NCBI GenBank assembly: GCA_047602425.1
Contig: JASGHG010000001.1
Location: 288,001 to 352,000 of the forward strand
Direction: 5' to 3'
DNA length: 64,000 nt
Source: Nibricoccus sp.
GTDB taxonomy: Bacteria > Verrucomicrobiota > Verrucomicrobiia > Opitutales > Opitutaceae
Made by a program: the position numbers and the translations under genes. The stretch's first letter is position 1; every line of letters begins with the position of its first letter. Below, one piece after another: positions 1,148-44,106 of the stretch. The notes beneath the pieces were generated by a model. It saw only the letters and a program-made list of their open reading frames with translations, did not search any database and was not told where the DNA came from.

Positions 1148-1333
1148 GGCGAACGTTCTCTGGTCAGCCACGCCGTACCAGCGGGCAGAGATTAAAAGGA
1201 CGGACGTCATCATAGGCGTTGCGCTGTATGCTACTAATAGGCGGATGAGATAACATAAGGAAGCGGCCCCGGCATGGACTGGACGGAGACAAGCACGTAA
1301 CCGGCACTCCTTAGCCGGAGCCGCAATCTAACA

Positions 1334-2599
1334 ATGATAACGAACAAAGCACTTAATGGCAGAACGCACTCCGGGCAACCGGAAACTCGCTGGGATATCG
1401 CCGTCGACGTTGGGCAAAAAGCACTGGACTGGTACGGTGAACTCGGGGCACAGGCGCACCAAGGCCATATCGCCAATCGCAATGAGGCCATCCTCTCATG
1501 GCTGGAACAACTCAACACCCACGCCCGCCAGCACGGCCTTGGCGGCGTGCGCATCCTCTGCGAACCCACCGGCGGATACGAACGGCGCCTGCTGCGCGCG
1601 GCCCGCCAACTCGGCGGCGCCACCGCTCTGGTCAATGGCGAAGCCGTCCACCAGATGCAAGTGGTCGAGAACAACGATACCGGCAAAAGCGACATCAAAG
1701 ATCCCCGCACGATTTTACTATTGGCCAAGTGGAACAAAACCCTGACCGATCGTCCCCTCCAAGGCGAGTGGCTGCTCCTGCGCGAACTCAACGCCCGCTA
1801 CGACCGGCTCGAACGCGACTCCACCCGCTGTAAAAACAGGATTCATAAACTGCTCCTCTCGCTCTTCCCCGAATTGAGCTTTAAAAACGACTGGCTCTTC
1901 GAAGGCCGCGCCGCCCAAGCCACGATCGCACTCTACGGCCTGAACGCCGCCGCGATCCTCGCCGACGGCCTGGAACGCTGCACCGCCAAACTGCGCAACC
2001 ACCACGTTGGCCCAAAGACCATCCAGCGACTCTTTGCCGATGCCCAGCGCTGCGCCCTGATCGACTCCGACCCCGACTGGCTGGCCCTGCTCGCCGAGGA
2101 CCTGCGCGCCCTCTTTGCCGAACTCACCGTGCTGCGCACCCGCCGAACCAACACCCGCCAGCAAATGATCGCCCTGGTCGAACGCCTGCGCGCCCGCGGC
2201 GCCACCCGCCTGCAAGCCCATCCCGACCTGATCAGCCCCTTCATGCTCGCCCGTGTCCTCGCCGAGACCGGACCGCTCCGGGACTTTGCCCACGTGCGCC
2301 AACTCTGGCGCTACGGCGGACTGAACCTGCGGCCCCGCCAAAGCGGCACGATGCAAGGCCAGCTCCGCCAAGCCAAACGCGGCCGCGCCCGCCTGCGCCA
2401 CGTCCTCGCCCAAGCCGTCCTCAAACGCGTCGTGCACGGACAACTCTACGGGCAATACTACCACGCCAAACGCGACACCGGCATGTGCGGCGGCAAAGCC
2501 ATGACCGCGGTCGCCCGCAAGTTCCTCAAACTGCTCCACGGCCTTGAACGCTCGCCCCAACCCTTCGACCCGAAGCGCGTTTTCCGCTCCGCCGCCTAA
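1334..2599 (+). CDS. IS110-family DEDD transposase/recombinase
   Basis: AVDVG, CEPTG, KSDIKD (D-E-D-D) RuvC-like motifs and C-terminal RQSG serine, AMTAVARK motif. Confidence 0.93.
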   Translation: MITNKALNGRTHSGQPETRWDIAVDVGQKALDWYGELGAQAHQGHIANRNEAILSWLEQLNTHARQHGLGGVRILCEPTGGYERRLLRAARQLGGATALVNGEAVHQMQVVENNDTGKSDIKDPRTILLLAKWNKTLTDRPLQGEWLLLRELNARYDRLERDSTRCKNRIHKLLLSLFPELSFKNDWLFEGRAAQATIALYGLNAAAILADGLERCTAKLRNHHVGPKTIQRLFADAQRCALIDSDPDWLALLAEDLRALFAELTVLRTRRTNTRQQMIALVERLRARGATRLQAHPDLISPFMLARVLAETGPLRDFAHVRQLWRYGGLNLRPRQSGTMQGQLRQAKRGRARLRHVLAQAVLKRVVHGQLYGQYYHAKRDTGMCGGKAMTAVARKFLKLLHGLERSPQPFDPKRVFRSAA

Positions 2600-2808
2600 A
2601 CCACTTCCTTGATCTATTTTAGCCGACATTAACTTTTGCTTTTCCGGGAAACCCGCCGCTCGAGGGCCACCAGCCGTTCCGCACAGCCTCGCTGATGCTC
2701 AACTGTATGTTTTAAAGCCCCGACGGCGGGCCTCCCGGTCCTACCGCCCTTTAAGTATCTGGGCTTGCCCCGGAAGGACGGACAAAGATTTGAGGTGGGT
2801 TGTTATGG

Positions 2809-3651
2809 TTAGTGGTGGAGGGATTCGTAGTCGAGCGGGGAGAGGTAACCGAGGGAGCTGTGGAGGCGCTCGCGGTTGTAGAAGCAAATATAGTCGTGCA
2901 GATGGGCGCGCGCTTCTGCGCGGGTGGCGAAGGTGCGTGGATAAACGCATTCGAGTTTGAGGGTGCTCCAGGCCGATTCCATGGCGGCATTATCGTAGCA
3001 GTTGCCGCGGCGGCTCATGCTGGGGATCGCGCCCATCGCGTGAAGCTTCTGGCGGTACGCCTCGCTGGCATACTGGCAGCCGCGGTCGGTGTGGATGATC
3101 AACCCGGCTTTGGGCTGGCGCGAACGGCGCGCCATTTCCAAGGCCGACAGGACCAGTGGCGTGTCGATTTTTTCACTCATGGCCCAGCCGACCAGCCGGC
3201 GGCTGCATGCATCTTTGAAGGCGCATAAATACAGCCAGCCTTCGCCGGTTCCGATGTAGGTCAGATCGCTCCGCCAAACGTGATCGAGCGCGGTGACCGC
3301 AGGCTTTCCCAAGAGGAGATTCGGGGCGATCGGACCGGGATGGTTGCTGTCGGTGGTTTTGACTTTGTACCGCCGGCGGGGCCGGGCGCTTTGGCGTTGT
3401 TGTTTCATCAGCCGGGCGATGCGTTTGCGGCTGGGTGTGGGCTGGCCCGGGCATCGCAAGACTTGCTGGATACGCGGCGCTCCGTAGGTGCCCCGGCTCC
3501 GCAGGTACGCGGCGGTGATTTTCGGGGATAGTTCCGCATCCGCCAATGTTCGCGGACCCGGATGAGTCTGCCGGTGGCAATACGCGTGGTACCCGCTGGT
3601 GCTCACGCCAAAGGCCGCGCACAGATCGGCGATCGTGTGGTGGGTCTTCAT
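2809..3651 (-). CDS. IS3 transposase OrfB (DDE integrase core)
   Basis: WRSDLTY, HTDRGCQY, DNAAMES motifs; joined to OrfA by -1 frameshift at A8 run (3704-3711). Confidence 0.92.
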   Translation of the reverse strand: MKTHHTIADLCAAFGVSTSGYHAYCHRQTHPGPRTLADAELSPKITAAYLRSRGTYGAPRIQQVLRCPGQPTPSRKRIARLMKQQRQSARPRRRYKVKTTDSNHPGPIAPNLLLGKPAVTALDHVWRSDLTYIGTGEGWLYLCAFKDACSRRLVGWAMSEKIDTPLVLSALEMARRSRQPKAGLIIHTDRGCQYASEAYRQKLHAMGAIPSMSRRGNCYDNAAMESAWSTLKLECVYPRTFATRAEARAHLHDYICFYNRERLHSSLGYLSPLDYESLHH

Positions 3652-3656
3652 CGCAG

Positions 3657-4007
3657 TTATCCTTTCGTACCGCTCGGCGGGGGTTCGGAGAGGATGCCCA
3701 AGGTTTTTTTTAATATGTCGCGCTGGGTGCGCAGGCGCTCGTTCTCCTGACGGAGCGCTCGCAACTCCGCTTGCAACGAACCGATGTCGGCCGGCGTTTG
3801 CGCGCCGCCCCCATGGGGGCGTTCCTCCGTGCGGATCCACGCATACAGGGTCGTCTCGTGGACCCCGATCTTCGGCGCATACTTCGGCACGCTTTCCCCG
3901 CTCAGCCGCCACGCCGCCACGCTGTCGCGGCGAAACGCCTCGTCATACTCAGGCACGTATTTGCGGGGCGGCGGGGCCGCCTCGTTCTTGGTCTCGGGTT
4001 TGTTCAT
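3657..4007 (-). CDS. IS3 transposase OrfA (HTH plus leucine zipper)
   Basis: YDEAFRRDSV...IGVHETTLYAW HTH, ELRALRQENERLRTQRDILKK zipper. Confidence 0.9.
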   Translation of the reverse strand: MNKPETKNEAAPPPRKYVPEYDEAFRRDSVAAWRLSGESVPKYAPKIGVHETTLYAWIRTEERPHGGGAQTPADIGSLQAELRALRQENERLRTQRDILKKTLGILSEPPPSGTKG

Positions 4008-4310
4008 GGACTTATTCTTTCTTCGTAGGCCCTCTTCTTTGTCCACGTTTTCGGGGTAAGCTTAATCGTCCGGGCCAGCCCGCAAAAGCTGGACCAACTC
4101 ATGGGGATCGTCGCGGAGGACCGGGCTCCTGGCCAAAGCGCCAAAACCATATCCATCTCATGTAACCAAAATACCTGCTACATCCTACCCCCGGGGCTCG
4201 TCCTCCGACGAGCTGGAGGCCCATTCTCGGACTCGCCCCTCTCCCCCCTGACTGCAAAATCAAACTTACCCCTTGATTTTACCTAAAGGGGAGCGCCTGG
4301 TTCGGCTCTT

Positions 4311-4685
4311 TCATGCTTTGATTTCTTCAGGCATAGATTTCTTACCAATACGGTGAGCCGCTATCCAAAAAGGAATCATAACAGGCAAAGACCAGATCCC
4401 GATAACGAAGAAGAGAATGCCGCTTTGAGCATCGGGATGCCAATAGAACCCGTCGAGATAGATGAAAAGAAACCAAACAGCGTAAAGGGATGTGCTCAGT
4501 GCGATCACTCTTTGTACCTTCCGGGCTTCTTTCCATCGCAAAGCAATCTGTAGAGAATAAACAAGGGGGCCTAACGCAAAGGGCACTGCCAACAGACCGG
4601 CATAAAAGGGCTCTGCCACGACGCAGAGTACTAGCGCGCCCAAGGCCAGAAAGAGTGCCGTCGTGCTAACGCCGATATTCTTCAT
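4311..4685 (-). CDS. Cassette: small multi-pass membrane protein
   Basis: Four hydrophobic segments; between attC sites. Confidence 0.8.
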   Translation of the reverse strand: MKNIGVSTTALFLALGALVLCVVAEPFYAGLLAVPFALGPLVYSLQIALRWKEARKVQRVIALSTSLYAVWFLFIYLDGFYWHPDAQSGILFFVIGIWSLPVMIPFWIAAHRIGKKSMPEEIKA

Positions 4686-4691
4686 ATCTTT

Positions 4692-4790
4692 GCCGAACGT
4701 TAAAGGTGAGCCACGCCTGTGCTCGGCGCGACAGCTGCCACGCAGCTGGCGTGACGAGCATAGGCGTTGTGCTCTAGCGCCTGGTTCGGC
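4692..4790 (-). other. attC site 4
   Basis: GCCGAAC...GTTCGGC, conserved array family. Confidence 0.92.
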
Positions 4791-4793
4791 TCT

Positions 4794-5099
4794 TTAGATT
4801 CTACGAGGATCAACATATTTAGCTCCCTGCTGCTTCAAGAGCCGCCAAAGCTTCCGGACAAGTCTGCCATCCGAGATCCAGAACACGAAAAAGCTAAAGA
4901 AACCTCGGTGCGGAAAAAGAACGATGAAATGAACTTCTGCATCACCGTCCTCCGTATAGTCGCAAACCTGAGCTCGTGCGGCACCAGACTGAACCAGTAA
5001 CGACCGACCAGACTGCTCGACGCTATAACCAGCGGTGCGAAGGCACACTTCAATCGCCTCGAACTTCTGACTGGGAAACGTGTAAATCGGGAAGGCCAT
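4794..5099 (-). CDS. Cassette: hypothetical protein
   Basis: ATG just after core site, stop just before attC. Confidence 0.75.
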   Translation of the reverse strand: MAFPIYTFPSQKFEAIEVCLRTAGYSVEQSGRSLLVQSGAARAQVCDYTEDGDAEVHFIVLFPHRGFFSFFVFWISDGRLVRKLWRLLKQQGAKYVDPRRI

Positions 5100-5287
5100 A
5101 CTTTTGCCTAACGATCTCTGGTCAGCCATGCCGAGCTGGCGACTCCAAACTCAAAGCGAACCCCGTCGAGGCATTGCGCTGTATGCTACTAATAGGCGGA
5201 TGAGGTAACATAAGGGGCGGCCCCGGCACGGACTAGACGGTGACAAGCACGTAACCGGCACTCCTTAGCCGGAGCCGCAATCTAACA

Positions 5288-6553
5288 ATGATAACGAACA
5301 AAGCACTTAATGGCAGAACGCACTCCGGGCAACCGGAAACTCGCTGGGATATCGCCGTCGACGTCGGGCAAAAAGCACTGGACTGGTACGGTGAACTCGG
5401 GGCCCAGGCGCACCAAGGCCATATCGCCAATCGCAATGAGGCCATCCTCTCATGGCTGGAACAACTCAACACCCACGCCCGCCAGCACGGCCTTGGCGGC
5501 GTGCGCATCCTCTGCGAACCCACCGGCGGATACGAACGGCGCCTGCTGCGCGCGGCCCGCCAACTCGGCTGCGCCACCGCTCTGGTCAACGGCGAAGCCG
5601 TCCACCAGATGCAAGTGGTCGAGAACAACGATACCGGCAAAAGCGACATCAAAGATCCCCGCACGATTTTACTATTGGCCAAGTGGAACAAAACCCTGAC
5701 CGATCGTCCCCTCCAAGGCGAGTGGCTGCTCCTGCGCGAACTCAACGCCCGCTACGACCGGCTCGAACGCGACTCCACCCGCTGTAAAAACAGGATTCAT
5801 AAACTGCTCCTCTCGCTCTTCCCCGAATTGAGCTTTAAAAACGACTGGCTCTTCGAAGGCCGCGCCGCCCAAGCCACGATCGCACTCTACGGCCTGAACG
5901 CCGCCGCGATCCTCGCCGACGGCCTGGAACGCTGCACCGCCAAACTGCGCAACCACCACGTTGGCCCAAAGACCATCCAGCGACTCTTTGCCGATGCCCA
6001 GCGCTGCGCCCTGATCGACTCCGACCCCGACTGGCTGGCCCTGCTCGCCGAGGACCTGCGCGCCCTCTTTGCCGAACTCACCGTGCTGCGCACCCGCCGA
6101 ACCAACACCCGCCAGCAAATGATCGCCCTGGTCGAACGCCTGCGCGCCCGCGGCGCCACCCGCCTGCAAGCCCATCCCGACCTGATCAGCCCCTTCATGC
6201 TCGCCCGTGTCCTCGCCGAGACCGGACCGCTCCGGGACTTTGCCCACGTGCGCCAACTCTGGCGCTACGGCGGGCTCAACCTGCGGCCCCGCCAAAGCGG
6301 CACCATGCAAGGCCAGCTCCGCCAAGCCAAACGCGGCCGCGCCCGCCTGCGCCACGTCCTCGCCCAAGCCGTCCTCAAACGCGTCGTGCACGGACAACTC
6401 TACGGGCAATACTACCACGCCAAACGCGACACCGGCATGTGCGGCGGCAAAGCCATGACCGCGGTCGCCCGCAAGTTCCTCAAACTGCTCCACGGCCTTG
6501 AACGCTCGCCCCAACCCTTCGACCCGAAGCGCGTTTTCCGCTCCGCCGCCTAA
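5288..6553 (+). CDS. IS110-family DEDD transposase/recombinase
   Basis: Near-identical to 1334-2599 (one G/C amino-acid difference seen). Confidence 0.93.
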   Translation: MITNKALNGRTHSGQPETRWDIAVDVGQKALDWYGELGAQAHQGHIANRNEAILSWLEQLNTHARQHGLGGVRILCEPTGGYERRLLRAARQLGCATALVNGEAVHQMQVVENNDTGKSDIKDPRTILLLAKWNKTLTDRPLQGEWLLLRELNARYDRLERDSTRCKNRIHKLLLSLFPELSFKNDWLFEGRAAQATIALYGLNAAAILADGLERCTAKLRNHHVGPKTIQRLFADAQRCALIDSDPDWLALLAEDLRALFAELTVLRTRRTNTRQQMIALVERLRARGATRLQAHPDLISPFMLARVLAETGPLRDFAHVRQLWRYGGLNLRPRQSGTMQGQLRQAKRGRARLRHVLAQAVLKRVVHGQLYGQYYHAKRDTGMCGGKAMTAVARKFLKLLHGLERSPQPFDPKRVFRSAA

Positions 6554-6597
6554 ACCACTTCCTTGATCTATTTTAGCCGACATTAACTTTTGCTTTT

Positions 6598-6880
6598 CCG
6601 GGAAACCCGCCGCTCGAGGGCCACCAGCCGTTCCGCACAGCCTCGCTGATGCTCAACTGTATGTTTTAAAGCCCCGACGGCGGGCCTCCCGGTCTTACCG
6701 CCCTTTAAGTATCGTCCGGGCCAGCCCGCAAAAGCTGGACCAACTCATGGGGATCGTCGCGGAGGACCGGGCTCCTGGTTAAAGCGCCAAAACCATATCC
6801 ATCTCATGTAACCAAAACCACCTGCTACATCCTGCCCCCGGGGCTCGTCCTCCGACGAGCTGGAGGCCCATTCTCGGACT
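6598..6880 (+). ncRNA. Predicted bridge RNA/seekRNA in IS right end (also at about 13301-13583, and split in copy 1)
   Basis: Manually paired stems CCGGGA/TCCCGG, CCCGCCG/CGGCGGG, GGGC/GCCC enclosing an internal loop with target-matching strands; second multi-stem domain 6714-6879; boundaries approximate. Confidence 0.7.
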
Positions 6881-6947
6881 CGCCCCTCTCCCCCCTGACT
6901 GCAAAATCAAACTTACCCCTTGATTTTACCTAAAGGGGAGCGCCTGG

Positions 6948-7235
6948 TTAGGCTTCTTCTTTATTCTTATTCGCCTCCTGCTCGGTTTTAGAATCGCTAC
7001 AATGATTCAAGCCGCGCCCATCGATCATCATTTTCACACCTGCTACGCAAAAGATAGCAGCAACTATTAACGGGTGCCAACCTATGGTGTTATATGTCAA
7101 CCATGCTAAATCACGGCTAGGTCCAGAATACCATTTTGTGAACGTAGACATGCCTTCAACCATCGCAAAGAAATGAACCGCATAGAGAAATACTCCCAGC
7201 GATATGAATCCAAAACCGAGCTTCGTTTTATTCAT
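6948..7235 (-). CDS. Cassette: small membrane protein (duplicate of 7825-8112)
   Basis: Identical 95-aa protein; two hydrophobic segments; stop overlaps R'' TAAC. Confidence 0.85.
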   Translation of the reverse strand: MNKTKLGFGFISLGVFLYAVHFFAMVEGMSTFTKWYSGPSRDLAWLTYNTIGWHPLIVAAIFCVAGVKMMIDGRGLNHCSDSKTEQEANKNKEEA

Positions 7236-7246
7236 AGATAATTTTA

Positions 7247-7345
7247 GCCTAACGTTATAGATCTGCCGCGCCTGTGGCCGGCGCGACCGGTGCGTCAGCA
7301 GCGGGCGTGACGGACATAGGCGTTGGCAGTAGCGCCTGGTTGGGC
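7247..7345 (-). other. attC site 6
   Basis: GCCTAAC...GTTGGGC. Confidence 0.92.
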
Positions 7346-7352
7346 TCTTTCT

Positions 7353-7718
7353 TTAGTCCCACCATAGATAGAGAAACCTGCCTTCAATGATGGGCAGCGG
7401 CTCTTTGCTCAAGTCGTAGCCTTCCAGAGTGGCTTCTTCGCGATAGATTGCCGCCAGCTCTTCCGATACACCTGCATCCGACAGCTCGATCACTAGCGAG
7501 TCGGAATAAGGTCCACCTAACTCAACGACCTCTTCTTCGTCTGCGATAATAGCGTCCTGAGGTACAAATACACGCTTCGCGCCAATGGCATACAGATGCT
7601 CAACGAAAGCTGCTGCTTCAGACGTGGACGGGAAACGATTCGATGCGAGCGCAGCTTCGTGGCCGTTCAGGCGCAACCACTCCAGAGCCTCGGGTCCGTC
7701 TTCAAATTGTATCTTCAT
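7353..7718 (-). CDS. Cassette: acidic hypothetical protein ending in LWWD
   Basis: Full cassette-spanning ORF. Confidence 0.8.
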   Translation of the reverse strand: MKIQFEDGPEALEWLRLNGHEAALASNRFPSTSEAAAFVEHLYAIGAKRVFVPQDAIIADEEEVVELGGPYSDSLVIELSDAGVSEELAAIYREEATLEGYDLSKEPLPIIEGRFLYLWWD

Positions 7719-7731
7719 GGGGACGCCTTTT

Positions 7732-7830
7732 GCCCAACGTTAAAGGTGAGCCACGCCTGTGCTCGGCGCGACGGGTGCGCAGCAGCCGGCGTGACGAGCA
7801 TAGGCGTTGTGCTCTAGCGCCTGGTTAGGC
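7732..7830 (-). other. attC site 7
   Basis: GCCCAAC...GTTAGGC. Confidence 0.92.
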
Positions 7831-8112
7831 TTCTTCTTTATTCTTATTCGCCTCCTGCTCGGTTTTAGAATCGCTACAATGATTCAAGCCGCGCCCATCG
7901 ATCATCATTTTCACACCTGCTACGCAAAAGATAGCAGCAACTATTAACGGGTGCCAACCTATGGTGTTATATGTCAACCATGCTAAATCACGGCTAGGTC
8001 CAGAATACCATTTTGTGAACGTAGACATGCCTTCAACCATCGCAAAGAAATGAACCGCATAGAGAAATACTCCCAGCGATATGAATCCAAAACCGAGCTT
8101 CGTTTTATTCAT
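7825..8112 (-). CDS. Cassette: small membrane protein (duplicate of 6948-7235)
   Basis: Identical 95-aa protein. Confidence 0.85.
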   Translation of the reverse strand: MNKTKLGFGFISLGVFLYAVHFFAMVEGMSTFTKWYSGPSRDLAWLTYNTIGWHPLIVAAIFCVAGVKMMIDGRGLNHCSDSKTEQEANKNKEEA

Positions 8113-8123
8113 AGATAATTTTA

Positions 8124-8210
8124 GCCTAACGTCAGAGGCCAGACAACGGCGCCGGCGGGACTGCCGAAGCGGGACGCGTCATAGCCGTTGTCTGTGGCGG
8201 CTGGATATGC
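8124..8210 (-). other. attC site 8 with non-canonical R'' (GCATATC)
   Basis: GCCTAAC...CTGGATATGC; related to attC site 2. Confidence 0.85.
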
Positions 8211-11742: not shown

Positions 11743-11886
11743 GCGCTCTTCGGCGTCGGTTTAGCCGATTTGGTGTGCTTGCGGCCAAGGCTCATTTTCT
11801 GATTTTGCCTAACGTTTGAGGTCAGCCACGCCGTACTGGCGGGCAAAGATTAAAAGGACGGACGCGATCATAGGCGTTGCGCTGTA

Positions 11887-13643
11887 TGCTACTAATAGGC
11901 GGATGAGGTAACATAAGGGGCGGCCCCGGCACGGACTAGACGGTGACAAGCACGTAACCGGCACTCCTTAGCCGGAGCCGCAATCTAACCATGATAACGA
12001 ACAAAGCACTTAATGGCAGAACGCACTCCGGGCAACCGGAAACTCGCTGGGATATCGCCGTCGACGTTGGGCAAAAAGCACTGGACTGGTACGGTGAACT
12101 CGGGGCCCAGGCGCACCAAGGCCATATCGCCAATCGCAATGAGGCCATCCTCTCATGGCTGGAACAACTCAACACCCACGCCCGCCAGCACGGCCTTGGC
12201 GGCGTGCGCATCCTCTGCGAACCCACCGGCGGATACGAACGGCGCCTGCTGCGCGCGGCCCGCCAACTCGGCTGCGCCACCGCCTTGGTCAACGGCGAAG
12301 CCGTCCACCAGATGCAAGTGGTCGAGAACAACGATACCGGCAAAAGCGACATCAAAGATCCCCGCACGATTTTACTATTGGCCAAATGGAACAAAACCCT
12401 GACCGATCGTCCCCTCCAAGGCGAGTGGCTGCTCCTGCGCGAACTCAACGCCCGCTACGACCGGCTCGAACGCGACTCCACCCGCTGTAAAAACAGGATT
12501 CATAAACTGCTCCTCTCGCTCTTCCCCGAATTGAGCTTTAAAAACGACTGGCTCTTCGAAGGCCGCGCCGCCCAAGCCACGATCGCACTCTACGGCCTGA
12601 ACGCCGCCGCGATCCTCGCCGACGGCCTGGAACGCTGCACCGCCAAACTGCGCAACCACCACGTTGGCCCAAAGACCATCCAGCGACTCTTCGCCGACGC
12701 CCAGCGCTGCGCCCTGATCGACTCCGACCCCGACTGGCTGGCCCTGCTCGCCGAGGACCTGCGCGCCCTCTTTGCCGAACTCACCGTGCTGCGCACCCGC
12801 CGAACCAACACCCGCCAGCAAATGATCGCCCTGGTCGAACGCCTGCGCGCCCGCGGCGCCACCCGCCTGCAAGCCCATCCCGACCTGATCAGCCCCTTCA
12901 TGCTCGCCCGTGTCCTCGCCGAGACCGGACCGCTCCGGGACTTTGCCCACGTGCGCCAACTCTGGCGCTACGGCGGGCTCAACCTGCGGCCCCGCCAAAG
13001 CGGCACCATGCAAGGCCAACTCCGCCAAGCCAAACGCGGCCGCGCCCGCCTGCGCCACGTCCTCGCCCAAGCCGTCCTCAAACGCGTCGTGCACGGACAA
13101 CTCTACGGGCAATACTACCACGCCAAACGCGACACCGGCATGTGCGGCGGCAAAGCCATGACCGCGGTCGCCCGCAAGTTCCTCAAACTGCTCCACGGCC
13201 TTGAACGCTCGCCCCAACCCTTCGACCCGAAGCGCGTTTTCCGCTCCGCCGCCTAAACCACTTCCTTGATCTATTTTAGCCGACATTAACTTTTGCTTTT
13301 CCGGGAAACCCGCCGCTTGAGGGCCACCAGCCGTTCCGCACAGCCTCGCTGATGCTCAACTGTATGTTTTAAAGCCCCGACGGCGGGCCTCCCGGTCTTA
13401 CCGCCCTTTAAGTATCGTCCGGGCCAGCCCTCAAAAGCTGGACCAACTCATGGGGATCGTCGCGGAGGACCGGGCTCCTGGTTAAAGCGCCAAAACCATA
13501 TCCATCTCATGTAACCAAAACCACCTGCTACATCCTGCCCCCCGGGGCTCGTCCTCCGACGAGCTGGAGGCCCATTCTCGGACTCGCCCCTCTCCCCCCT
13601 GACGGCAAAATCAAACTTACCCCTTGATTTTACCTAAAGGGGA
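11887..13643 (+). mobile_element. IS110-family (IS1111-like) element copy 3, intact, 1757 bp
   Basis: Same ends and organisation as copy 2. Confidence 0.95.
11991..13256 (+). CDS. IS110-family DEDD transposase/recombinase
   Basis: Same protein as copy 2. Confidence 0.93.
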   Translation: MITNKALNGRTHSGQPETRWDIAVDVGQKALDWYGELGAQAHQGHIANRNEAILSWLEQLNTHARQHGLGGVRILCEPTGGYERRLLRAARQLGCATALVNGEAVHQMQVVENNDTGKSDIKDPRTILLLAKWNKTLTDRPLQGEWLLLRELNARYDRLERDSTRCKNRIHKLLLSLFPELSFKNDWLFEGRAAQATIALYGLNAAAILADGLERCTAKLRNHHVGPKTIQRLFADAQRCALIDSDPDWLALLAEDLRALFAELTVLRTRRTNTRQQMIALVERLRARGATRLQAHPDLISPFMLARVLAETGPLRDFAHVRQLWRYGGLNLRPRQSGTMQGQLRQAKRGRARLRHVLAQAVLKRVVHGQLYGQYYHAKRDTGMCGGKAMTAVARKFLKLLHGLERSPQPFDPKRVFRSAA

Positions 13644-16254: not shown

Positions 16255-16329
16255 TGGTGCAAGCGCCGGGAGTCGAACCCGGATCAACGGCTTCGGAGAC
16301 CGCTACACTATCCATTGTGCTACGCCTGC
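16255..16329 (-). tRNA. tRNA-Arg (CCG)
   Basis: 75-nt cloverleaf GCAGGCG...CGCTTGC-ACCA, loop CT-CCG-AA, GTTCGACTC T-arm. Confidence 0.95.
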
Positions 16330-41489: not shown

Positions 41490-41825
41490 GAGGGGAAAGG
41501 TTTCAAACATGCAGCTAATGACGCCGGTCGCGAGGAAAAGTCGCAGCAGTCCTGTCATTGAAACTCATGACACATGCCTCCATGTTCTCCCGCTCGCTTT
41601 TGAAATCAATTTATCATGCCTTGGGATCTTCATCATAAAAAGGGCATCCATCTGCCACAAATCGGTTGGTGGCTGGACCCGCAGCGCCCGGCCGACTTTG
41701 CAGTCGTATCGCACGCCCATTCGGATCATTGCGCACGCAACAAGGAGATTGTCTGCACGCCGGCCACCGCCCGCCTTGGGCTTGCCCCGGAAGGACGGAC
41801 AAAGATTTGAGGTGGGTTGTTATGG

Positions 41826-42668
41826 TTAGTGGTGGAGGGATTCGTAGTCGAGCGGGGAGAGGTAACCGAGGGAGCTGTGGAGGCGCTCGCGGTTGTAGAA
41901 GCAAATATAGTCGTGCAGATGGGCGCGCGCTTCTGCGCGGGTGGCGAAGGTGCGTGGATAAACGCATTCGAGTTTGAGGGTGCTCCAGGCCGATTCCATG
42001 GCGGCATTATCGTAGCAGTTGCCGCGGCGGCTCATGCTGGGGATCGCGCCCATCGCGTGAAGCTTCTGGCGGTACGCCTCGCTGGCATACTGGCAGCCGC
42101 GGTCGGTGTGGATGATCAACCCGGCTTTGGGCTGGCGCGAACGGCGCGCCATTTCCAAGGCCGACAGGACCAGTGGCGTGTCGATTTTTTCACTCATGGC
42201 CCAGCCGACCAGCCGGCGGCTGCATGCATCTTTGAAGGCGCATAAATACAGCCAGCCTTCGCCGGTTCCGATGTAGGTCAGATCGCTCCGCCAAACGTGA
42301 TCGAGCGCGGTGACCGCAGGCTTTCCCAAGAGGAGATTCGGGGCGATCGGACCGGGATGGTTGCTGTCGGTGGTTTTGACTTTGTACCGCCGGCGGGACC
42401 GGGCGCTTTGGCGTTGTTGTTTCATCAGCCGGGCGATGCGTTTGCGGCTGGGTGTGGGCTGGCCCGGGCATCGCAAGACTTGCTGGATACGCGGCGCTCC
42501 GTAGGTGCCCCGGCTCCGCAGGTACGCGGCGGTGATTTTCGGGGATAGTTCCGCATCCGCCAATGTTCGCGGACCCGGATGAGTCTGCCGGTGGCAATAC
42601 GCGTGGTACCCGCTGGTGCTCACGCCAAAGGCCGCGCACAGATCGGCGATCGTGTGGTGGGTCTTCAT
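41826..42668 (-). CDS. IS3 transposase OrfB
   Basis: As copy 1. Confidence 0.92.
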   Translation of the reverse strand: MKTHHTIADLCAAFGVSTSGYHAYCHRQTHPGPRTLADAELSPKITAAYLRSRGTYGAPRIQQVLRCPGQPTPSRKRIARLMKQQRQSARSRRRYKVKTTDSNHPGPIAPNLLLGKPAVTALDHVWRSDLTYIGTGEGWLYLCAFKDACSRRLVGWAMSEKIDTPLVLSALEMARRSRQPKAGLIIHTDRGCQYASEAYRQKLHAMGAIPSMSRRGNCYDNAAMESAWSTLKLECVYPRTFATRAEARAHLHDYICFYNRERLHSSLGYLSPLDYESLHH

Positions 42669-42673
42669 CGCAG

Positions 42674-43024
42674 TTATCCTTTCGTACCGCTCGGCGGGGG
42701 TTCGGAGAGGATGCCCAAGGTTTTTTTTAATATGTCGCGCTGGGTGCGCAGGCGCTCGTTCTCCTGACGGAGCGCTCGCAACTCCGCTTGCAACGAACCG
42801 ATGTCGGCCGGCGTTTGCGCGCCGCCCCCATGGGGGCGTTCCTCCGTGCGGATCCACGCATACAGGGTCGTCTCGTGGACCCCGATCTTCGGCGCATACT
42901 TCGGCACGCTTTCCCCGCTCAGCCGCCACGCCGCCACGCTGTCGCGGCGAAACGCCTCGTCATACTCAGGCACGTATTTGCGGGGCGGCGGGGCCGCCTC
43001 GTTCTTGGTCTCGGGTTTGTTCAT
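42674..43024 (-). CDS. IS3 transposase OrfA
   Basis: As copy 1; A8 slippery run at 42721-42728. Confidence 0.9.
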   Translation of the reverse strand: MNKPETKNEAAPPPRKYVPEYDEAFRRDSVAAWRLSGESVPKYAPKIGVHETTLYAWIRTEERPHGGGAQTPADIGSLQAELRALRQENERLRTQRDILKKTLGILSEPPPSGTKG

Positions 43025-44106
43025 GGACTTATTCTTTCTTCGTAGGCCCTCTTCTTTGTCCACGTTTTCGGGGTAAGCTTACCTGTTGCGCGCCCGGATG
43101 CCCGGTCGCCGGGTCGAGCACGCCCTGCCCTTCGGCCGCGCCGAACAGCTCACTTCCAACACGAACATCACGCTTCATCCGGCAGGTCACATCTTCGGTT
43201 CCGCCCTTTGCCTGCTCGAACACGCCGACCACGGGCGTCTGCTCTACACCGGCGATTTCAAACTGCACGCCGGACTCTCCGCCGAACCTTGTGCCACACC
43301 CCAAGCCGACGTTCTCGTGATGGAAACGACTTTCGGTCTGCCGCGTTACGTATTCCCGCCCGTCGAGGAAGTGCGCGCCGCCATCGTGGCGTTTTGCCGG
43401 CAAGCCCTCGCCGACGGAGCCACACCCGTGCTTTACGCGTATGGCCTGGGCAAAAGCCAGGAATTGCTGTGCGTGCTTGGCCAGGCTGGCCTGCCGGTGA
43501 TGATGCATGCCGAGACATTTCGCCTGACGGAAATTTGCCGCCAGCTCGGACTCGCAATGCCGCCCGCCCGCGAGTTCGACGCGAATGAGTTGCCCGGGCA
43601 CGTCGTCATTTGTCCCCCGCAAAGTCGCAATGCTTCCTTCCTCCGCAAAATTCCTGCGCCGCGCACCGCGATGATTTCCGGTTGGGCACTGGATCGCTCG
43701 ACGATTTTCCGCAGCCGCTGCGACGCGGCTTTCCCGCTTTCCGACCACGCGGATTTCCCCGAGCTGCTGCGTTTCGTGGAACTCGTGAAACCCAAACGCG
43801 TGCTGACGCTGCATGGTTTTGCCGCGGAGTTTGCCAGCGAACTGCGCCGCCGCGGCATTGAAGCCTGGGCCATTAGCGAAAACAACCAGCTCGACCTGCC
43901 GCTGGGCCCTCGACCCTGTAGGGTTCGATCTCGGTCGACGCCCGGTTCGAAAACTACGCTCGCCGAAGCAAGCACAGGCCTGCGCAAAACGGCGAACCTG
44001 CACCGTTCATGTAACTTTTGCCCCGCCCATCGTTCGCGGCGTGACTTTTTCGCGCCAACGTGAAAAGTCGCCCGCACCGGCTCGCCTTTCAACGGTCACA
44101 TCCCCC

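What the first reader, a model, noticed from the sequence alone, without database searches (positions are those of the whole stretch)
5106..8132. Duplicate cassette carries two different attC sites, diverging exactly at the IS insertion point
Seen: 6939-7255 and 7816-8132 (317 bp) appear identical, but beyond AGCGCCTGG one copy continues into attC 7 and the other into IS copy 2 and the dissimilar attC 5 body. Known: IntI moves a cassette together with its own attC, so duplicates should share it. The IS sits next to R'', leaving the paired inner arms on one side, so exchange there yields a foldable hybrid attC. Inference: the IS recombinase, or recombination between IS copies, reassorts cassettes and attC sites, an IntI-independent route of array shuffling.
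Basis: partly seen in the sequence, partly recalled or inferred. Interest (0 to 1): 0.82.

Follow-up and report, generated by a model that had tools for sequence, protein, structure and literature searches.

The report
Insertion-sequence recombination re-pairs integron cassettes
A duplicated integron gene cassette really does carry two different recombination sites, most likely because ordinary homologous recombination between copies of an insertion sequence that targets those sites swapped the neighbouring DNA; this is a neat example of known processes, not a new one.

Summary
Window 6939-7255 and 7816-8132 are 317 bp and 100% identical. To the left, one copy runs into an intact attC and the other into an IS110/IS1111-type IS and then an unrelated attC body.

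The window holds an integrase-less cassette array in a closed 5.16 Mb genome. That genome has two integron integrases elsewhere and nine copies of this IS. All nine sit at the same point of an attC, antisense to the cassettes.

The key new evidence:
- **Shared tract.** The attC body and cassette left of IS copy 2, plus the first 398 bp of the IS, are 100% identical to a locus at 922 kb. This 1103-bp tract ends inside diverged homology on both sides, in a cassette ORF and in the IS body.
- **Mosaic IS copies.** 108 of 171 informative site pairs fail the four-gamete test.

This pattern indicates homologous recombination anchored in the IS. It does not fit IntI, and it does not fit exchange at the IS junction. 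The direction of transfer and the exact origin of the A/B difference remain inferred. No reads were available to check the assembly.

Earlier notes of this scan report attC-targeting IS110 lineages on other DNA, but none reports this re-pairing.

The parts
1228..4291 (+). IS copy 1 (IS110/IS1111-type) in the attC of cassette K3. It is interrupted by a nested IS3-family element at 2760-4064.
   Evidence: blastn against IS copy 2, in two pieces at 99% and 98% identity. rve/HTH_21 domains in ORF 2809-3912. Identical nested-element copies occur elsewhere.
4311..4685 (-). Cassette K3 ORF (124 aa, no Pfam match). Its 5' part (from 4478) lies in the 100% tract shared with the 922-kb integron. Its 3' part (4307-4477) differs at 11 positions.
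4687..4795 (+). Intact long-hairpin attC (GTGCTCT|AGCGCC type) of cassette K2. The copy in the 922-kb integron carries a group II intron at CCTGG|TTCGGC.
4794..5099 (-). Cassette K2 ORF. The ORF listing extends it to an ATG at 5129. No Pfam match.
4478..5580 (.). 1103-bp tract 100% identical to G000:927...-924... (922-kb integron, intron excluded). This is the inferred gene-conversion or double-crossover tract.
   Evidence: 4 of 20000 random placements of the 22 differences give so long a clean run
5106..5182 (+). attC 5 body (R' box GCCTAAC 5106-5112, L', loop, L'' ending GCGCTGT), left of IS copy 2. It belongs to a short attC type that dominates the arrays of two other genera of the family.
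5183..6938 (+). IS copy 2, 1756 bp: 105-bp 5' non-coding part, transposase 5288-6553, 385-bp 3' non-coding region.
   Evidence: Pfam DEDD_Tnp_IS110 and Transposase_20. Ends set by comparing the nine copies with empty attCs. Candidate subterminal inverted repeats at 5203-5217 and 6917-6931.
6939..6953 (+). Spacer plus R'' (AGCGCCTGG TTAGGC), the part of the interrupted attC that stays with cassette A.
6939..7255 (-). Duplicate cassette copy A. ORF 6948-7235, 95 aa, hydrophobic, no Pfam match.
7242..7350 (+). attC upstream of copy A (attC of cassette K0, GGCAGT|AGCGCC type).
7353..7718 (-). Cassette K0 ORF (121 aa, no Pfam match), between the two duplicates.
7727..7835 (+). attC 7, the intact long-hairpin attC attached to copy B (DNA fold -33.5 kcal/mol).
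7816..8132 (-). Duplicate cassette copy B (ORF 7825-8112).
8120..8204 (+). attC upstream of copy B, a different type resembling 612-696.
   Evidence: family D13
11886..13642 (+). IS copy 3, identical in sequence to the copies at G000:5139347 and G000:1490205.

Best explanation
The window holds an integrase-less cassette array (a CALIN) invaded by an attC-targeting IS110/IS1111-type insertion sequence. The IS always lands between L'' and the 9-nt spacer before R'', antisense to the cassettes.

Because the same 1.76-kb IS sits at the same point of many attCs in several arrays, it acts as portable homology. Host homologous recombination (crossover or gene conversion) that starts in one IS copy and ends in another homologous stretch replaces everything on one side of the IS.

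Most likely history (inferred):
1. The cassette (ORF plus a long-hairpin attC, as in copy B) was duplicated by IntI acting in trans.
2. An IS copy inserted into the attC of copy A.
3. A conversion tract copied from the 922-kb integron, anchored in cassette K3 on one side and in the IS on the other, replaced A's own attC body with the attC 5 body and cassette K2.

The result is an ORF joined, across the IS, to a foreign attC body. Precise IS excision would leave a complete-looking hybrid attC.

Shown: the duplicate, the IS positions, the shared tract with both ends inside homology, and the mosaic IS copies. Inferred: the direction of transfer, the earlier IS insertion into A's attC, and RecA dependence.
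For: - **Same position in all copies.** All 9 IS copies lie in an attC at the same position and orientation.
- **Shared left flank.** IS copies w2 (window) and m2 (922 kb) share an identical left flank but have unrelated right flanks.
- **Clustered differences.** Over window 4292-6938 the two loci differ at 22 positions. All lie in 4308-4477 (11 positions) or 5581-6900 (11 positions), leaving a clean run of 1103 bp. Only 4 of 20000 random placements give so long a run. The tract ends lie in the K3 ORF and 398 bp inside the IS. Neither end is at a G|TT crossover or at the IS junction.
- **Inherited alleles.** The differences in the IS are alleles shared with other copies, for example the type I/II block at alignment columns 504-918. 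They are not private mutations.
- **Mosaic copies.** There are 19 informative sites. 108 of 171 pairs fail the four-gamete test. Local incompatibility was matched or undercut in 2 of 10000 permutations.
- **Canonical duplicates exist.** The genome's IntI-type duplicates carry their own attC.
- **Direction, from the spacer.** IS-free attC 5-type sites in two other genera have A[GA]CGGC after GCGCTGT in 13 of 13. The 922-kb copy has AGCGGC. Copy A has AGCGCC, as do copy B and 11 of 13 GTGCTCT sites.
- **Precedent.** Homologous recombination between IS copies inside an integron array is documented for Vibrio cholerae (PMC11023631, passages).
Against: - **Disfavoured target.** The history needs an IS insertion into a GTGCTCT-type attC. 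In this genome, 0 of 13 such sites are occupied, against 7 of 10 GCGCTGT sites (hand tally).
- **Weak spacer marker.** IS copy a3 sits in an attC 5-like body with AGCGCC. Overall, 5 of 7 occupied short-type sites have AGCGCC, against 0 of 20 IS-free ones. This could reflect target preference and not hybrid formation.
- **Direction not proven.** If the window was the donor, the 922-kb copy is the hybrid and the A/B difference needs a separate cause.
- **Patch conversion possible.** Gene conversion inside the IS without flank exchange could also produce the internal SNP pattern.
- **A third attC body.** A low-depth metagenome contig links a 98.6%-identical ORF to a third attC body, switching 20 nt from the IS point with no IS present (record 7). 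attC bodies may therefore also change without IS help.
- **No reads.** No reads of this strain were available to confirm the assembly or the SNPs.
Confidence: 0.55

Rival explanations
1. Copy A with attC 5 is the native cassette, and the IS simply inserted into its preferred target. The 922-kb locus received the tract from the window. Copy B gained its long-hairpin attC by a separate event in the conserved attC arm, with no IS involved. That event could be short-homology recombination, gene conversion or template switching between attC repeats.
For: - GCGCTGT|AGCGCC is the best-occupied target class (7 of 10 GCGCTGT sites occupied), while 0 of 13 GTGCTCT sites are occupied.
- The window has IS copies on both sides of the shared segment (IS1-segment-IS2), as expected of a donor.
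- A metagenome contig shows the ORF with yet another attC body and no IS at the junction.
- attC arms share up to 39 identical nt between sites.
Against: - Between attC 5 and attC 7, uninterrupted identity left of the ORF is only about 16 nt, which is short for RecA.
- This needs an extra, unspecified mechanism.
- IS-free attC 5-type sites in relatives carry AGCGGC, not AGCGCC, in 13 of 13.
Confidence: 0.14
2. A RecA-independent deletion or replication slippage occurred between two direct copies of the 15-nt spacer-plus-R'' motif (AGCGCCTGGTTNGGC). One copy lay beside IS copy 2 and the other in A's own attC. The deletion removed A's attC body and the cassette that IS copy 2 originally interrupted.
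For: - The motif is conserved at nearly every attC and directly abuts the IS.
- This needs no IS insertion into a disfavoured attC.
- It also predicts identity ending 'exactly at the IS'.
Against: - 15-nt repeats recombine rarely.
- It does not explain the 1103-bp tract or why IS copy 2 changes haplotype 398 bp in. Separate conversion events would be needed for those.
Confidence: 0.1
3. The RNA-guided IS recombinase itself recombined an IS/attC junction with another attC. It would move the IS end, with its attached attC body, onto a new cassette.
For: - IS110/IS1111 enzymes carry out site-specific recombination guided by an RNA from the non-coding region, and known members target one end of attC sites (PMC11187229, passages).
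- Body type and spacer type are mismatched at 5 of 7 occupied short-type sites, against 0 of 20 IS-free ones.
Against: - The only exchange with mapped ends crosses the left junction intact and ends inside the IS body.
- The IS left end and the right target flank are not alike by eye (5 of 14 positions, read), so a half-site reaction has no obvious guide.
- The body/spacer mismatch is equally explained by target preference.
Confidence: 0.06
4. IntI recombined the 'wrong' (top) strand, with the crossover in R'' instead of R', so that an ORF was separated from its attC body.
For: On the plus strand, R'' reads GTTAGGC, a perfect R'-like box. The breakpoint cannot be told apart from G|TT in R''. 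Two intI genes are present.
Against: - An attC split by a 1.76-kb IS cannot fold, so this cannot have formed the A junction.
- All three control boundaries of the canonical duplicates are at R'.
- Top-strand events are reported to be rare (recalled, not checked here).
Confidence: 0.04
5. Assembly or polishing artefact: flanks were mis-joined across near-identical IS copies, or a short segment was duplicated by error.
For: Nine IS copies are 99% identical, and the 317-bp repeat lies 877 bp apart. No reads of this strain could be laid.
Against: - The genome is one closed 5.16 Mb contig at 99.97% completeness, which implies reads long enough to span a 1.8-kb repeat.
- The IS copies keep distinct haplotypes.
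- The two loci sharing the tract differ by a 1945-bp intron and by diverged flanks, so they are separate places.
Confidence: 0.04

Closest known systems
IS1111-attC group (ISPa21, ISPst6, ISKpn4; Tetu & Holmes 2008, Post & Hall 2009, neither read here)
   Same: - It inserts at one fixed point near the 5' (R'') end of attC sites, antisense to cassette transcription, as PMC3001079 describes (passage).
- It has a DEDD-type transposase.
- Its long non-coding region lies downstream of the transposase gene, the IS1111 layout described in PMC11187229 (passage).
- There is no target duplication.
   Different: - The transposase is under 30% identical to the listed (best-ranked) plasmid-borne IS110-family genes, and under 60% to all 166 matching records.
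- It was not found by DNA in 25 relatives.
- Only one 38%-identical relative turned up in 300 other genomes of the phylum.
- It is therefore at best a distant branch, or an independent attC-targeting lineage. Clade membership was not tested against reference sequences.
Homologous recombination between IS copies inside a chromosomal integron (IS3 copies in the Vibrio cholerae superintegron, PMC11023631)
   Same: Host recombination between IS copies embedded in a cassette array rearranges the array without IntI (passages).
   Different: - There the IS copies sit in cassette coding sequences in opposite orientation and invert a block.
- Here the IS sits at a fixed point of the attC itself.
- The exchange here therefore re-pairs ORFs with attC bodies and moves cassette blocks between separate arrays.
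Canonical IntI cassette excision and re-insertion
   Same: The right boundary of the duplicate is at the G|TT crossover. Two other duplicates in this genome follow the rule fully, one of them at the attI-proximal position.
   Different: The left boundary is on the R'' side and the attC bodies differ.
Group IIC-attC introns
   Same: These are another mobile element that targets attC in antisense orientation. One sits in the 922-kb copy of the shared tract (PMC3001079 passages).
   Different: It is a retroelement that inserts at CCTGG|TT, 9 nt from the IS point. It is single-copy here apart from a 188-bp fragment, so it is not a recombination substrate.

Membership tests
IS110/IS1111 family insertion sequence | DEDD (RuvC-like) N-terminal domain plus Transposase_20 C-terminal domain | tested here: met
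   PF01548 (E 8e-16) and PF02371 (E 9.7e-14), both above the curated cut-off.
IS110/IS1111 family insertion sequence | Site-specific insertion without target-site duplication | tested here: met
   All 9 copies lie between ...T and AGCG[C/G]CTGG. Empty attCs read ...T|AGCG.. with no repeated bases.
IS1111 type (as opposed to IS110 type) | Long non-coding region downstream of tnp | tested here: met
   385 bp lie downstream (6554-6938) against 105 bp upstream (5183-5287). The criterion is taken from PMC11187229.
IS1111 type (as opposed to IS110 type) | Subterminal inverted repeats | tested here: inconclusive
   There is a 15-nt, 80% complementary pair at 5203-5217 and 6917-6931, 20 and 7 nt from the ends. 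It is one of 34 pairs of similar quality in the element.
IS1111 type (as opposed to IS110 type) | seekRNA/bridge RNA whose guides match the target | tested here: inconclusive
   The 3' region holds CCTGGTTA, AGCGCC and GCTACA, which match the target. By my own estimate about 7 six-mer matches are expected by chance. No relatives were available for covariation, and there was no Rfam hit.
IS1111-attC group | Insertion near the R'' end of attC, antisense to cassettes | tested here: met
   9 of 9 copies. The description is from PMC3001079.
IS1111-attC group | Transposase inside the monophyletic ISPa21/ISPst6 clade | not tested
   No reference sequences were compared. The best listed plasmid hits are under 30% identical, which argues against close membership.
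Integron cassette array without integrase (CALIN) | Two or more attC sites with R''/R' boxes and a hairpin, and no intI nearby | tested here: met
   There are 17 plus-strand attC hits between G000:287070 and 302518. The neighbouring genes are SHMT and sensor kinases. intI is found only at 919 kb and 5147 kb.
IntI-mediated cassette duplication | Both boundaries at G|TT of R', and the cassette's own attC travels with it | tested here: not met
   The right boundary is met. The left boundary is on the R'' side and the attC bodies differ. Control duplicates elsewhere meet both conditions.
Homologous recombination / gene conversion between repeats | Tract ends lie inside homologous sequence, and the repeats are mosaic | tested here: met
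   4 of 20000; 108 of 171 pairs; 2 of 10000.
Homologous recombination / gene conversion between repeats | Dependence on RecA | not testable with these tools
   This needs genetics.

The most novel reading that the evidence does not exclude
The RNA-guided recombinase of this attC-targeting IS can recombine an occupied IS/attC junction with a naive attC. Together with precise excision, this would make the IS an IntI-independent shuffler that re-pairs cassette ORFs with attC bodies within and between arrays. That would explain why 5 of 7 occupied short-type attCs carry the spacer of the long-hairpin type, while 0 of 20 IS-free ones do.
Probability: 0.06. Interest if true: 0.8.

Novelty: new member of a known kind. 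Interest (0 to 1): 0.4.

Why it matters
Cassettes are thought to keep their own attC. That assumption underlies the use of attC type to trace where a cassette comes from.

This genome shows, with mapped end points, that an attC-targeting IS can serve as shared homology at a fixed point of many attCs. Ordinary recombination then moves cassette blocks between separate arrays and leaves ORFs attached to foreign attC bodies. After IS excision, such hybrids would look native.

This is a caution for attC-based inference of cassette origin. It also suggests a plausible minor route of array evolution in integrase-less arrays. It is not a new mechanism.

Tried and rejected
- **Relatives of the duplicated cassette.** There was no DNA match in 40 relatives. 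The genome-contig scan found none. The metagenome scan gave one locus matching only residues 1-20. The native attC of this ORF therefore could not be read from relatives.
- **Assembly check.**
  - The only run holding part of the stretch (X1, share of words 0.27) is a low-depth metagenome of a relative, kept as contigs.
  - Seven pieces were laid and none spans a junction of interest.
  - Record 7 links a 98.6%-identical ORF to a third attC body. I treat this as weak evidence, because a k=31 contig could cross the 35-nt conserved arm by error.
- **IS relatives.** There were none by DNA in 25 relatives, none in genome contigs, and one at 38% identity in 300 other genomes of the phylum. Its right flank looks attC-like, but the contig lacks the left flank.
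- **Folding as a test of the hybrid attC.**
  - Minimum-energy DNA folds of the short attC types are weak (-13.8 and -13.4 kcal/mol) and do not reproduce the canonical L boxes. Energy therefore says little.
  - The argument rests on the R-box complementarity (GCCTAAC/GTTAGGC) and on intact sites of the same type in other genera.
- **seekRNA look-up by shared k-mers.** The matches are not above chance.
- **Spacer SNP as a direction marker.** It is suggestive but confounded by possible target preference.
- **Literature.**
  - Searches for 'IS1111-attC' (10 papers), for attC with homologous recombination, insertion sequence and cassette array (173 papers, 20 listed), and for 'hybrid/chimeric attC' (7 papers) showed no description of IS-anchored re-pairing of cassettes and attC bodies in the listings and passages I read.
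  - Tetu & Holmes 2008 is not held and Post & Hall 2009 was not sought. They may already discuss it.
- **Earlier notes of this scan.** There were none for this genome or this transposase.


Full report
**What is there.** The window is G000:288001-352000 of a closed, single-contig 5.16 Mb genome.
- Its first ~14.5 kb are an integron cassette array. attC repeats of about 80-110 nt alternate with short ORFs on the minus strand.
- The array has no integrase beside it. The next genes are a tRNA, serine hydroxymethyltransferase and sensor kinases.
- Two integron integrases above the curated cut-off lie elsewhere, at 5147 kb and 919 kb. Each sits next to its own array and points away from it.
- That geometry, the stop codon of the duplicated ORF inside R'' (GCCTAAC), and start codons a few bases after GTTRRRY fix the cassette sense as the window's minus strand.

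**The insertion sequence.**
- It is 1756 bp and encodes a 421-aa protein with DEDD_Tnp_IS110 and Transposase_20 domains.
- The genome has nine copies. Three are in the window, and copy 1 is broken by a nested IS3-family element.
- All nine sit in an attC between the L'' arm and AGCG[C/G]CTGG, 9 nt before R''. The transposase is antisense to the cassettes, and there is no target duplication.
- This is the behaviour described for the IS1111-attC group (PMC3001079, passage; PMC11187229, passages). The long non-coding region downstream of the gene is the IS1111 layout.
- The protein is far from known examples. It is under 30% identical to the listed plasmid IS110-family genes. It was absent by DNA from 25 relatives. 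One relative at 38% identity was found in 300 other genomes of the phylum.
- Three copies are identical in sequence, so the element has moved recently.
- A hand tally of the heptamer left of the insertion point shows a clear preference:

| Heptamer | Sites occupied |
|---|---|
| GCGCTGT | 7 of 10 |
| GCGCTCT | 1 of 6 |
| GGCAGT | 1 of 5 |
| GTGCTCT | 0 of 13 |
| GTGCTGT | 0 of 3 |

**The observation.**
- Window 6939-7255 and 7816-8132 are identical over 317 bp.
- On the right, identity stops 3 nt past the canonical G|TT crossover, and the upstream attCs differ.
- On the left, copy B continues into an intact long-hairpin attC (7727-7835). Copy A abuts IS copy 2, and beyond the IS lies a short attC body of another type (5106-5182).
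- Two other cassette duplicates in this genome are bounded by R' ends on both sides and carry their own attCs.
- The last 15 nt of the repeat are conserved in most attCs. 'Exactly at the IS point' therefore means 'somewhere in these 15 nt'.

**Independent evidence on mechanism.**
- *A second locus.* The left flank of IS copy 2 recurs next to the IS copy at 922 kb, inside the integron there. The right flank of that copy is an unrelated cassette.
- *The aligned tract.* I aligned window 4292-6938 with that locus, leaving out a 1945-bp group II intron present only at 922 kb.
  - The two loci differ at 22 positions: 11 in 4308-4477, inside cassette ORF K3, and 11 in 5581-6900, inside the IS.
  - Between them lie 1103 bp without a single difference.
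  - Only 4 of 20000 random placements give such a run.
- *What the tract contains.* It covers the 5' part of K3, an attC, cassette K2, the attC 5 body and the first 398 bp of the IS.
- *Where it ends.* Its ends are not at IntI crossovers and not at the IS junction. They lie inside homologous sequence, which is the signature of homologous recombination or gene conversion.
- *Inherited alleles.* The differences within the IS are alleles shared with other copies.
- *Mosaic copies.* Across the nine copies, 108 of 171 pairs of informative sites fail the four-gamete test. Incompatibility is clustered by distance, with 2 of 10000 permutations as low.
- *A second ORF with two attC bodies.* In the window K3 has a short-type body plus IS copy 1. 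At 922 kb it has an intact long-hairpin attC.

**Which copy is the hybrid.** This is inferred, not shown.
- The attC 5 type is the dominant attC of arrays in two other genera of the family.
- In 13 of 13 IS-free sites there, the L'' end GCGCTGT is followed by A[GA]CGGC.
- The 922-kb copy has AGCGGC. Copy A has AGCGCC, as do copy B and 11 of 13 GTGCTCT sites.
- This favours B as the native pairing, A as the hybrid and the window as the recipient.
- Two facts cut against it. The history requires an earlier IS insertion into a GTGCTCT-type attC, a class never occupied today (0 of 13). IS copy a3 sits in an attC 5-like body followed by AGCGCC.
- More broadly, 5 of 7 occupied short-type sites have AGCGCC, against 0 of 20 IS-free short-type sites in this genome and its relatives. 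This may mean that the IS prefers AGCGCC on its right, or that occupied sites are often hybrids. I could not separate the two.

**Rivals.** The alternatives are a reverse direction with a separate attC-arm event for copy B, slippage between the 15-nt motifs, an IS-recombinase half-site reaction, IntI acting on the wrong strand, and misassembly.
- The recombinase reading has no positive support. The one exchange with mapped ends crosses the junction intact.
- IntI cannot fold an attC that is split by 1.76 kb.
- Misassembly is unlikely in a closed contig whose IS copies keep distinct haplotypes. However, no reads of the strain were available.

**Comparison with what is known.** Targeted insertion of IS1111-type elements into attC is known (passages). 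So is homologous recombination between IS copies inside a chromosomal integron (PMC11023631, passages).
- What this genome adds is a distant attC-targeting lineage, and a mapped case in which the IS, by sitting at a fixed point of the attC, lets recombination re-pair ORFs with attC bodies and copy cassette blocks between arrays.
- My searches showed no description of that consequence in the listings and passages read. The two founding papers on these elements were not available to me.
- Earlier notes of this scan record attC-targeting IS110/IS1111 lineages in other genomes, but not this re-pairing.

**Verdict.** It is a new member of a known kind and of moderate interest.

Noticed in passing
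window 2760-4064 (also window 41777-43081 and G000:5019980-5021286): A 1.3-kb IS3-family element (rve, HTH_21) is nested inside IS copy 1. Two further copies are 99.9-100% identical, so it moved recently and has probably inactivated IS copy 1.
   Followed up: partly
G000:924716-926660 (locus L015/L023), outside the window: A 1945-bp group II intron (Rfam D1-D4 hits, GTGTG start) is inserted antisense in an attC at CCTGG|TTCGGC, 9 nt from the IS point, inside the tract shared with the window. A 188-bp fragment at 87% identity lies at 928691-928877.
   Followed up: partly
G000:1781034-1781117: A lone attC 5-like body is broken 2 nt past the IS insertion point (GCGCTGTAG, then unrelated sequence), with no R'' and no IS. 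It may be a scar of an IS-linked rearrangement.
   Followed up: no
loci L010, L017 (G007) and L011 (G006): The short attC 5 type, rare in this genome, is the standard attC of large arrays in two other genera of the same family. The long-hairpin type dominates this genus. This suggests that cassettes flow between genera.
   Followed up: partly
window attCs and G000 arrays: IS occupancy depends strongly on the heptamer left of the insertion point: GCGCTGT 7 of 10 against GTGCTCT 0 of 13. Occupied short-type sites mostly carry the AGCGCC spacer (5 of 7), while IS-free ones never do (0 of 20). Whether this is target preference or hybrid formation is unresolved.
   Followed up: partly
G000:5141416-5145946: Two canonical cassette duplications sit in the integron at 5.14 Mb. 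One copy is the cassette nearest the integrase, as expected of recent IntI excision and re-insertion at attI.
   Followed up: partly
window 16258-16329 (-): A tRNA gene lies about 1.7 kb beyond the last attC of the integrase-less array, before SHMT.
   Followed up: no
run X1, contig record 7 on window 7796-8017: A low-depth metagenome contig carries the duplicated ORF (3 differences in 222 nt) joined to an attC that matches attC 7 for only 20 nt and then differs. This is a third attC body for the same ORF, unless the contig is chimeric.
   Followed up: no
locus L029 (G279:C47): The only relative of the transposase found in the phylum sample (38% identity) ends with ...CTAAAGGG followed by a GTTGGAC box. 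An attC-like left end lies about 640 nt further on, so this distant relative may also sit in a cassette array.
   Followed up: partly
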